Shown here: piece after piece, positions 30,932-31,520 of the stretch
Layout of the letters: each line of letters opens with the position of its first letter
How positions within the stretch are numbered: position 1 is the first letter of the stretch
DNA from: a virus
DNA: 37,954 bases
UHGV virus genome: UHGV-0114795
Strand: one strand, 5' to 3'
Made by a program: the position numbers and the translations under genes
Notes under the pieces: generated by a model
Told to the model about the DNA's origin: nothing
The model's database searches: none
The model's input: the letters and a program-made list of their open reading frames with translations, nothing else

Positions 30932-31204
30932 CTACCTGCCTTGACGAAAGACCTTAAGAACATCGTTAAACTGACTTACGGATATGTCTTCTTTGAGCAG
31001 CTTTTCCAGAAATGCGTTTGGAATGAACGTATATCCCTCCTCTTTTGGTAGAGACGGGAGCAACGCCCTCGCCTCAGCCTTCAGAAGCTCAGTTCTGGCA
31101 ACTTTCACAAAAGAGATTTGAGTTCTTTCATCAATGGAACGAAGGAAGCGCAAGCGCTTGGCTTCTTTGTGTGTATCAGGTGGATTAAAGTCTTTGTTTC
31201 GCAT
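30932..31204 (-). CDS. Hypothetical protein (90 aa) between cII and replication initiator
   Basis: ATG at 31204 with GAGGT upstream (MRNKDFNPPDTHKEAKRLRF...); ORF-track version 30932..31513 is an extension through cII in another frame. Confidence 0.5.
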   Translation of the reverse strand: MRNKDFNPPDTHKEAKRLRFLRSIDERTQISFVKVARTELLKAEARALLPSLPKEEGYTFIPNAFLEKLLKEDISVSQFNDVLKVFRQGR

Positions 31205-31215
31205 ATAATTACCTC

Positions 31216-31281
31216 GTTGGATGTTGTTAAAATTCCATTTGTATTTGATCAGAACGCTCGGTTGCCGCCGGGCGTTTTTTA
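31216..31281 (+). ncRNA. oop-like antisense RNA (antisense to 3' end of cII)
   Basis: 3' portion (CCATTTGTATTTGATCAGAACGCTCGGTTGCCGCCGGGCGTTTTTTATT) nearly identical to remembered lambda oop RNA 3' end, with terminator hairpin GCUCGG-UUGCCG-CCGGGC plus U6; candidate -10 TATAAT at 31204..31209. The 5' end is inferred. Confidence 0.55.
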
Positions 31282-31520
31282 TTGGTGAGAATCGAAGCAA
31301 CTTGTCGTGCCAATCGAGCCATATCGTCGTCAACGACGCCCCATTCAAGAACAGCAAGCAGCATTGAGAACTTTGGAATCCAATCCCTCTTCCACCTGCT
31401 GATCTGCGACTTATCAACTCCCACAGCTTCCGCTGTCTTCTCAGTTCCAAGCATTGCGATTTTGTTAAGCAACGCACTCTCGATTCGTAGAGCCTCGTTG
31501 CGTTTGTTTGCACGAACCAT
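31227..31520 (-). CDS. cII: CII transcriptional activator (lambda type)
   Basis: 97 aa MVRANKRNEALRIESALLNKIAMLGTEKTAEAVGVDKSQISRWKRDWIPKFSMLLAVLEWGVVDDDMARLARQVA.., recalled as lambda CII with 1-2 substitutions. Confidence 0.9.
   Translation of the reverse strand: MVRANKRNEALRIESALLNKIAMLGTEKTAEAVGVDKSQISRWKRDWIPKFSMLLAVLEWGVVDDDMARLARQVASILTNKKRPAATERSDQIQMEF

What the first reader, a model, noticed from the sequence alone, without database searches (positions are those of the whole stretch)
31204..31282. oop-like antisense RNA with its promoter overlapping the start of an unknown 90-aa gene
The 3' 50 nt and terminator of lambda oop RNA are conserved antisense to the end of cII, but the upstream part differs because an extra 90-aa gene lies between cII and the replication initiator. 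A perfect TATAAT on the oop strand at 31204..31209 overlaps that gene's start codon, so the antisense RNA and this gene may be mutually exclusive.
Basis: partly seen in the sequence, partly recalled or inferred. Interest (0 to 1): 0.45.

Follow-up and report, generated by a model that had tools for sequence, protein, structure and literature searches.

The report
Variant oop antisense RNA of cII
This is a P22-like phage's version of the well-known lambda "oop" antisense RNA, which turns down the lysogeny activator CII. Its promoter overlapping the start of the next gene is the normal lambdoid layout, not a special feature of this phage.

Summary
TATAAT sits at 31204-31209 (+), and its first T is the complement of the A in the ATG of a 90-aa ORF (30932-31204, -). 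A strong intrinsic terminator (stem 31251-31278, T-run to 31283) lies inside the 3' end of a lambda-type cII (31227-31520, -). The last 35 nt match lambda oop exactly (51/57 over the cII overlap), giving a predicted ~66-nt RNA (G31216 to ~A31281).

In lambda, P22 and BTP1 the pO -10 (CATAAT) also overlaps the ATG of whichever gene follows cII: O, or a small ORF such as P22 orf48. The curated P22 record annotates exactly this.

The window carries a second 5' allele ("type B"). It is 10 nt shorter, has a consensus -10, no LexA box and no conserved 5' stem-loop. It occurs in front of the 90-aa ORF or of an orf48-family ORF, and in 279 of 5426 complete E. coli genomes. Across divergent loci with saturated synonymous sites, TTTCGCATATAATT is the longest invariant block (0/100000 shuffles), which supports a functional promoter.

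The 90-aa ORF is a real gene (dN/dS ~0.09) of unknown function. "Mutually exclusive" is overstated. Verdict: a new member of a known kind, of low interest.

The parts
31181..31186 (+). Candidate -35 hexamer TGGATT (3/6 match to TTGACA), 17 bp upstream of the -10. Weak and not conserved as a motif.
   Evidence: Read from the sequence. Below the threshold of the promoter scan. The corresponding hexamers in related loci are TGGTAC, TGGCAT and TGGATG.
31197..31210 (+). Invariant 14-nt block TTTCGCATATAATT. It covers the -10 hexamer plus the complement of codons 1-3 (ATG CGA AA) of the downstream ORF.
   Evidence: Longest invariant run among 12 distinct divergent sequences; 0 of 100000 column shuffles reach it. 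It is kept even where a different ORF follows (L058, L136).
31204..31209 (+). pO-type -10 hexamer TATAAT (consensus). It overlaps the start codon of the 90-aa ORF by 1 nt.
   Evidence: Positional equivalent of lambda and P22 CATAAT.
31216..31281 (+). Predicted oop-like antisense RNA, about 66 nt. The start at G31216, 7 nt after the -10, is inferred. The 3' end is placed by analogy with the lambda 77-mer. 55 nt are complementary to the cII 3' end including its stop codon; 11 nt lie in the cII-ORF90 spacer.
   Evidence: Alignment to lambda oop, fold and RNAalifold. The transcript itself was not observed.
31251..31283 (+). tO intrinsic terminator: arms 31251-31262 and 31267-31278, loop TGCC, then T6-A-TT to 31283. 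Identical to lambda tO.
   Evidence: Two stem positions show compensatory changes across type-B loci (AU to UA or GC; GC to UA).
31227..31520 (-). cII (lambda-type CII activator, 97 aa). Its 3' end is the antisense target.
   Evidence: Pfam PF05269, E 5e-48; phrog_191.
31211..31215 (-). Shine-Dalgarno sequence GAGGT of the 90-aa ORF, immediately adjacent to the predicted oop 5' end.
   Evidence: Sequence. The spacing to TATAAT varies by 1 nt among homologous loci.
30932..31204 (-). 90-aa ORF (phrog_2519), function unknown. Its stop codon TAG lies 2 nt before the ATG of the O-like gene.
   Evidence: phrog_2519, E 9.5e-57. Conserved as 86-90 aa. Median dN/dS 0.09 with dS above 1. Always found between a CII-family gene and an O-like gene.
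29982..30929 (-). O-like replication initiator containing iteron-like 12-nt repeats (30372-30514).
   Evidence: Pfam Phage_rep_O, E 3.4e-15; phrog_345; repeats.

Best explanation
The locus is the pO-oop-tO module of a lambdoid (P22-like, Lederbergvirus) phage, in a second allelic form that I call type B.

Inferred steps:
- A sigma-70 promoter with a consensus -10 (TATAAT, 31204-31209) and a weak -35 fires leftward, on the window + strand and convergent with pR.
- It starts at about G31216 and stops at the lambda-identical terminator tO inside cII, giving a ~62-66-nt RNA.
- 55 nt of that RNA are perfectly complementary to the last 17 codons plus the stop codon of cII mRNA.
- As in lambda, the oop:cII-mRNA duplex should trigger RNase III-dependent decay of cII mRNA, lower CII and bias the phage towards lysis.
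- As in lambda, convergent firing of pO should also dampen pR read-through into ORF90, O and the helicase gene.

Shown by sequence:
- Homology to lambda oop, the position of the RNA, and the terminator.
- Invariance of the -10 across divergent loci.
- The -10 overlapping the start codon of the next gene is the ordinary lambdoid architecture.

Differences of type B from lambda and P22 oop:
- It is about 10 nt shorter.
- It lacks the CTG-N10-CAG LexA box at +1.
- It lacks a conserved 5' stem-loop.
- So it is probably constitutive rather than SOS-tuned, with an open 5' end. This last point is inference.
For: - Homology and terminator.
- Same architecture in lambda, in the P22 curated annotation and in BTP1.
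- Transcripts were detected experimentally for P22 oop (63 nt; PMC13397905) and OOP-BTP1 (PMC7067206).
- oop-like sequences are reported in Stx phages (PMC5488031). Stx2a phages carry this exact module.
- Apart from L097 and L109 (insertion) and the truncated L111, the loci with the lambda-type tO have a -10 on the ATG of the next gene, whichever gene that is.
- The 14-nt block containing TATAAT is invariant across loci whose ORF90 synonymous sites are saturated. It includes the rare Arg codon CGA.
- The terminator stem shows compensatory changes.
- The mechanism in lambda (RNase III, promoter interference) comes from PMC5869508 and PMC3985674.
Against: - No transcript data exist for the type-B allele.
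- The -35 is poor (3/6) and there is no extended -10, so the generic promoter scan does not call the site.
- Part of the invariant block is the start codon and the AT-rich SD-ATG spacer. These are also constrained by translation, and may act as a recombination linker between modules.
- The terminator sequence is also constrained by cII coding (KKRPAATER).
- The absence of a LexA box and of a 5' stem-loop shows the RNA is not a faithful copy of lambda oop, so its kinetics or regulation may differ.
Confidence: 0.85

Rival explanations
1. There is no functional promoter. TATAAT and its flanks are conserved only because they form the translation-initiation region of ORF90 (AT-rich SD-ATG spacer, start codon, first codons) and/or a conserved junction used for module exchange. 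The hairpin is conserved because it encodes the CII C-terminus. On this view the oop-like segment is a silent relic.
For: - The -35 is weak and the scan makes no call.
- TATAAT alone is not over-represented.
- The invariant block includes ATG CGA AA.
- Mosaic boundaries fall exactly here.
Against: - Invariance extends over synonymous and non-coding positions, while the adjacent SD shifts by 1 nt and the neighbouring codons vary.
- The homologous position is a proven promoter in lambda. It yields detected RNAs in P22 and BTP1.
- A -10 is present in front of five unrelated downstream genes.
- The terminator stem shows compensatory changes.
Confidence: 0.08
2. The promoter/start-codon overlap creates a switch in which oop synthesis and ORF90 expression are mutually exclusive. 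This would work by promoter occlusion on the DNA and/or by oop pairing over the ORF90 ribosome-binding site.
For: - RNA polymerase bound at pO would cover the first ~18 codons and the RBS of ORF90 on the DNA.
- The oop 5' end abuts the SD.
- In lambda, an active pO lowers pR-driven expression downstream (PMC3985674).
Against: - The geometry is the same as lambda pO/O (11 versus 12 nt from +1 to the AUG). There the effect is a partial dampening: a pO- mutant shows only a slight increase in O protein, and oop does not alter O-P mRNA stability.
- The predicted RNA covers neither the SD nor the AUG.
- ORF90 is under strong purifying selection and is evidently expressed from the same operon.
Confidence: 0.1
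3. In type-B phages the main job of pO is to throttle pR transcription entering the ORF90-O-helicase replication module, by transcriptional interference and origin control. It would not mainly act as a cII antisense. On this view the promoter belongs with the downstream gene rather than with cII.
For: - The TATAAT block stays with the ORF start in L134, where another gene separates ORF90 from a shortened cII.
- Type B has lost the LexA box and the 5' stem-loop.
- Lambda pO has a documented role in replication control.
Against: - In all other loci the RNA still ends inside cII with a 55-nt overlap, and the cII-to-ORF90 spacing is fixed (21-23 nt).
- In L134 the downstream hairpin lacks a T-run and is not called as a terminator. 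That locus is also a single assembled contig.
Confidence: 0.15

Closest known systems
Bacteriophage lambda OOP RNA / pO promoter / tO terminator
   Same: - Convergent with pR and antisense to the last 55 nt of cII.
- Terminator and last 35 nt identical; 51/57 identical over the overlap.
- The -10 overlaps the start codon of the next pR-operon gene.
- The +1 lies 11-12 nt upstream of that AUG and next to its SD.
   Different: - ~66 nt instead of 77 nt, with a 22-nt instead of a 32-nt intergenic spacer.
- -10 is TATAAT (6/6), shifted 2 nt, instead of CATAAT; -35 is TGGATT (3/6) instead of TTGAGT (4/6).
- No CTG-N10-CAG LexA box at +1. Lambda has TCCTGTTGATAGATCCAGTA, 15/20 to consensus.
- No strong 5' stem-loop.
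- The next gene is a 90-aa ORF rather than O.
Phage P22 oop (antisense to c1), with orf48 between c1 and gene 18
   Same: - Same virus genus (Lederbergvirus).
- A small ORF of unknown function lies between the CII-type activator and the O-type initiator.
- The annotated oop promoter spans the start of that small ORF.
- A 63-nt RNA has been detected.
   Different: - The P22 5' segment is lambda-like (GGATTGATCCAGT, LexA-box-like, CATAAT).
- Its 3' part and terminator are specific to c1.
- The small ORF is orf48 (phrog_1913), not the 90-aa phrog_2519 protein.
OOP-BTP1 (Salmonella prophage BTP1)
   Same: A P22-like prophage. An RNA antisense to the cII 3' end was detected by RNA-seq. CATAAT overlaps the ATG of a 48-aa ORF upstream of O.
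   Different: It has the type-A 5' segment, a different cII allele and terminator, and an orf48-family ORF.

Membership tests
oop antisense RNA module (pO-oop-tO) of lambdoid phages | Short gene on the strand opposite the pR operon, overlapping the 3' end of a CII-family activator gene | tested here: met
   31216-31281 (+) against cII 31227-31520 (-). Overlap is 55 nt including the stop codon, as in lambda.
oop antisense RNA module (pO-oop-tO) of lambdoid phages | Sequence homology to lambda oop | tested here: met
   The last 35 nt are identical, 47/50 and 51/57 match. There is no homology in the 5' 11-22 nt.
oop antisense RNA module (pO-oop-tO) of lambdoid phages | Rho-independent terminator tO inside cII | tested here: met
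   12-pair stem followed by T6ATT. MFE -21 kcal/mol. Two compensatory pairs across 13 type-B sequences.
oop antisense RNA module (pO-oop-tO) of lambdoid phages | Sigma-70 promoter pO whose -10 lies at the start codon of the gene downstream of cII | tested here: met
   TATAAT at 31204-31209 overlaps the ATG. It is invariant in divergent loci and has the same layout as lambda, P22 and BTP1. Only the sequence and its conservation were tested; promoter activity was not.
oop antisense RNA module (pO-oop-tO) of lambdoid phages | A stable small transcript is actually made, and it lowers CII through RNase III | not testable with these tools
   No transcriptome data for this allele were found in the paper library.
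oop antisense RNA module (pO-oop-tO) of lambdoid phages | 5' stem-loop I of lambda OOP | tested here: not met
   Lambda folds into an 11-bp 5' helix. The window RNA forms only a 4+2-bp helix. RNAalifold finds no conserved 5' helix in type B. This is a feature of lambda OOP rather than of the family.
oop antisense RNA module (pO-oop-tO) of lambdoid phages | LexA box at the pO/+1 region (lambda, P22, BTP1) | tested here: not met
   There is no CTG-N10-CAG between 31150 and 31300. The best 20-mer matches 10/20 with one half-site, against 15/20 (lambda), 13/20 (P22) and 12/20 (BTP1) with both half-sites.
Rfam families | Match to a curated covariance model | tested here: inconclusive
   No family reaches its gathering score at this site. 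The best match is E 0.37 to an unrelated leader. No match to any oop model appeared, so this says nothing either way.
phrog_2519 (the 90-aa ORF) | Full-length match to the profile | tested here: met
   E 9.5e-57 over 1-90 of 90. The family has no known function.
Phage_rep_O (PF04492) N-terminal fragment, as the origin of the 90-aa ORF | Significant similarity to the N-terminus of O-like initiators | tested here: not met
   Pfam E 0.048 (14.6 bits against a cutoff of 28.7). phrog_678 E 0.009. hhalign probability about 1%. No O-like protein appears among 15 hits in 1.8 billion representatives.

The most novel reading that the evidence does not exclude
Type B would be a functionally distinct pO/oop allele. 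It would be SOS-independent (no LexA box), stronger at the -10 and structurally open at the 5' end. It would be genetically coupled to the gene downstream (ORF90 or an orf48-family ORF) rather than to cII. Its primary role would then be to gate pR transcription and translation entering the replication module, with the conserved small ORFs at this junction forming part of that control.
Probability: 0.15. Interest if true: 0.4.

Novelty: new member of a known kind. Interest (0 to 1): 0.2.

Why it matters
The finding matters mainly for annotation. A consistent, unannotated oop gene and pO promoter are present in CUS-3-like P22-type phages, in many Stx2a phages and in about 5% of complete E. coli genomes.

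The survey also shows a general rule. In lambdoid phages with this cII type, the pO -10 sits on the start codon of whichever gene follows cII. Two 5' alleles exist, and one of them lacks the LexA box. If that difference is functional, the lysis-lysogeny bias and the replication control of these phages, Stx2a phages included, would respond differently to SOS induction than in lambda. The finding does not open a new kind of mechanism.

Tried and rejected
- Rfam. No oop match at either the gathering or the permissive threshold, so this is uninformative.
- ORF90 as a truncated remnant of an O-type initiator N-terminus. Three weak hits fall in the same register (GY.F.PN..L) but none is significant. 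An exhaustive profile search found only a narrow 86-93-aa family. The protein is under strong purifying selection with an invariant C-terminus FRQGR. Rejected as unsupported.
- Structure route for ORF90. The AlphaFold model reaches pLDDT 73 and is helical. Foldseek against viral structures gives nothing below E 0.6. No function could be assigned.
- A second, decayed pO at the start of the O-like gene (window 30909-30935, CATAAC, resembling the lambda pO/O start). It is not conserved in L126 (CATCGC). The resemblance is explained by the homologous O N-terminus (MSNTAKI versus MTNTAKI).
- L134 as evidence that the promoter and hairpin form a unit independent of cII. The hairpin there lacks a T-run and is not called as a terminator, and the locus is a single contig, so it is only a lead.
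- Transcriptome evidence for the type-B allele in the literature. None was found.

Full report
**Context**

The window is a P22-like (Lederbergvirus) lambdoid phage. Its nearest relatives are phages Gally, CUS-3, JEP4 and HF4s, at 97-99% identity over this region. The early-right operon runs on the minus strand:
- cI, 31925-32626 (+)
- cro
- cII, 31227-31520 (-), Pfam Phage_CII, E 5e-48
- a 90-aa ORF, 30932-31204 (-)
- an O-like initiator, 29982-30929 (-)
- a DnaB-type helicase, 28609-29985 (-)

**Observation**

- TATAAT lies at 31204-31209 on the + strand. CAT at 31202-31204 is the complement of the ATG of the 90-aa ORF.
- A 12-pair hairpin (31251-31278) followed by T6ATT (to 31283) is called as an intrinsic terminator. 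It dominates the predicted fold (-21 kcal/mol, z -2.8).
- Against lambda (J02459), the last 35 nt before the end of the T-run are identical, 47/50 and 51/57 match, and similarity then stops.
- Five of the six differences fall in the last codons of cII (four synonymous, one Glu to Asp). The sixth changes the stop codon from TGA to TAA.
- The distance from CAT to the end of the T-run is 82 nt, against 92 nt in lambda.
- With a start at G31216 (7 nt after the -10; inferred) and a 3' end equivalent to that of the lambda 77-mer (A31281), the RNA would be about 66 nt. Of these, 55 nt are complementary to cII including its stop codon, the same as in lambda.

**Is it more than chance?**

- A perfect TATAAT is not rare on its own: there are 8 in the window against 14 expected.
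- The best -35 (TGGATT, 17-bp spacer) matches only 3/6, so the generic promoter scan does not report the site.
- The argument therefore rests on comparison. I collected 120 viral contigs carrying the lambda-type tO, plus loci encoding diverged homologues of the 90-aa protein (70-80% amino-acid identity).
- In 12 distinct sequences (pairwise nucleotide identity 46-99%), the longest invariant run is the 14-mer TTTCGCATATAATT (31197-31210). None of 100000 column shuffles gave a run that long.
- Synonymous sites of the 90-aa ORF are saturated between these loci (dS above 1). Even so, the block includes an invariant rare Arg codon (CGA) and non-coding positions.
- The adjacent Shine-Dalgarno sequence shifts by 1 nt and the neighbouring codons vary.
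- The terminator stem shows two compensatory pair changes.

**The architecture is the ordinary lambdoid one**

- In lambda, the pO -10 (CATAAT) overlaps the O start codon. The Fig. 1 legend of PMC3985674 places the pO- mutation, in the -10, 2 bp from the first O codon.
- In P22, the curated record BK000583 annotates orf48 between c1 and gene 18. It also annotates a 'promoter, oop, similar to phage lambda' at 32346-32374, which spans the orf48 start at 32349. A 63-nt P22 oop RNA has been sequenced (PMC13397905).
- In prophage BTP1, where OOP-BTP1 was seen by RNA-seq (PMC7067206), CATAAT overlaps the ATG of an unannotated 48-aa ORF.
- Among the tO-bearing loci, the -10 always overlaps the ATG of the gene after cII, whichever it is. 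The exceptions are L097 and L109, which carry an insertion here, and the truncated L111. The genes are:
  - lambda-type O
  - a 48-aa or 47-aa orf48-family ORF (phrog_1913)
  - a 53-aa ORF (phrog_1331)
  - the 90-aa ORF (phrog_2519)

**Two 5' alleles**

- Type A (lambda, P22, BTP1) has CATAAT, a 5' segment of the form GTTGATAGATCCAGT, and a CTG-N10-CAG LexA-box-like element at +1. That element matches the LexA consensus at 15/20, 13/20 and 12/20 respectively. LexA binding at oop-pO is cited in PMC5869508.
- Type B (this window) has CATATAAT and a spacer 10 nt shorter.
- Type B has no CTG-N10-CAG anywhere near the site.
- Type B has no conserved 5' helix. RNAalifold on 13 sequences keeps only the terminator, whereas lambda OOP has a strong 5' stem-loop.
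- Type B occurs in front of the 90-aa ORF (41 loci) and in front of a 47-aa orf48-family ORF (L058, L072, L100).
- So the different 5' part is an allele of the junction, not a consequence of the 90-aa gene.
- The full type-B segment is present in 279 of 5426 complete E. coli genomes, where only 'CII' and 'hypothetical protein' are annotated. It is also present in many Stx2a phages. oop-like sequences in Stx phages are mentioned in the literature (PMC5488031).

**The 90-aa ORF**

- It is a genuine gene: 86-90 aa in every homologue, with an invariant C-terminus FRQGR and a median dN/dS of 0.09.
- In nearly all loci it lies 21-23 nt after a CII-family gene (in L134 another gene intervenes). Where the sequence was read, its stop codon is 2 nt before the ATG of the O-like gene.
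- The family is narrow: 15 cluster representatives among 1.8 billion.
- There is no Pfam match above threshold. The weak resemblance of residues 54-88 to the N-terminus of O-type initiators is not significant.
- The AlphaFold model (pLDDT 73, helical) has no structural match among viral structures.
- Function: unknown. From its position and its apparent translational coupling to O, I would guess a replication-module accessory protein. That is inference only.

**Mechanism**

*Shown:* homology to lambda oop, antisense position, terminator, conserved -10, and the layout shared with lambda, P22 and BTP1.

*Inferred from lambda* (Krinke and Wulff, as cited in PMC5869508 and PMC3985674):
- The RNA pairs with the cII 3' end and provokes RNase III-dependent decay, lowering CII and favouring lysis.
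- Convergent pO firing reduces pR read-through into the replication genes.

*On exclusivity:*
- The predicted RNA begins 12 nt upstream of the ORF90 AUG and 1 nt 5' of its SD. In lambda the corresponding distance to the O AUG is 11 nt.
- In lambda, loss of pO only slightly raises O protein, and oop does not affect O-P mRNA stability.
- 'Mutually exclusive' expression is therefore not supported. Partial interference is plausible and already known.

**Verdict**

This is a real oop homologue, correctly spotted. It is a new allelic member of a well-known kind. The feature that looked unusual, the promoter overlapping the start of the next gene, is the standard arrangement. The points of modest interest are the consensus -10, the missing LexA box, the missing 5' stem-loop, and the recurrent small ORFs at this junction.

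Noticed in passing
window 5960-6026 (+): Rfam sar RNA (RF00262), 71.6 bits, E 3.8e-13. This is the P22 immI antisense RNA against ant, which confirms the P22-like nature of the element.
   Followed up: no
window 1009-1080 (+): tRNA gene (Rfam RF00005, 63.4 bits).
   Followed up: no
window 30372-30514: About 9-10 iteron-like 12-nt repeats (consensus ..CATGTGCGG) inside the O-like gene. They encode a His/Ala-rich repeat ([10 protein letters not shown]). This is presumably the replication origin, about 700 bp from pO.
   Followed up: partly
window 31600-31614 (-): gccctttttcagggc is the complement of GCCCTGAAAAAGGGC. From memory this is the lambda nutR boxB hairpin, lying between cro and cII. It was not checked against the lambda record.
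   Followed up: no
window 30909-30935 (+): gatttttgctgtattgctCATAACtacct resembles the lambda pO/O start (tatttttgctgtatttgtCATAATgactcct). The critical last T of the -10 is replaced by C. The resemblance is not conserved in L126 (CATCGC), so it probably reflects only the homologous O N-terminus.
   Followed up: yes
L097 and L109 (IMG/VR contigs): A roughly 490-bp insert lies between a type-B oop with the HF4s-type terminator variant and a second copy of the tO 3' half. This looks like a moron-like insertion at the cII 3' end.
   Followed up: no
L134 1155-1501: An 89-aa ORF (MSGGVMNHIEF...) lies between a shortened 74-aa CII-like ORF and the 90-aa ORF. TATAAT and a diverged tO-like hairpin (without a T-run) persist in the 76-nt spacer.
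   Followed up: partly
L138 (BTP1) 30566-30712 (+): An unannotated 48-aa orf48-family ORF lies in the 173-nt 'gap' between c2 (cII) and O in the BTP1 record. Its ATG is overlapped by the oop -10 CATAAT.
   Followed up: yes
phrog_1913: The P22 orf48 family (small ORFs between cII/c1 and O) is labelled 'tail protein' in PHROGs. Given its invariable position in the early-right operon, this is almost certainly a mis-annotation.
   Followed up: no
L126-L137, O-like genes: Gene callers start the O-like gene at an internal MENQK methionine, 62 nt after ORF90. However, in L126, the one locus read here, an ATG lies 2 nt after the ORF90 stop codon (MNSTATVYDF...), as in the window.
   Followed up: partly
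L002 (HF4s), L012, L031: A tO variant has a changed loop and upper stem (GGTCTTGCACACC instead of GGTTGCCGCC, 3 nt longer). The hairpin is kept but the CII C-terminal residues change.
   Followed up: no
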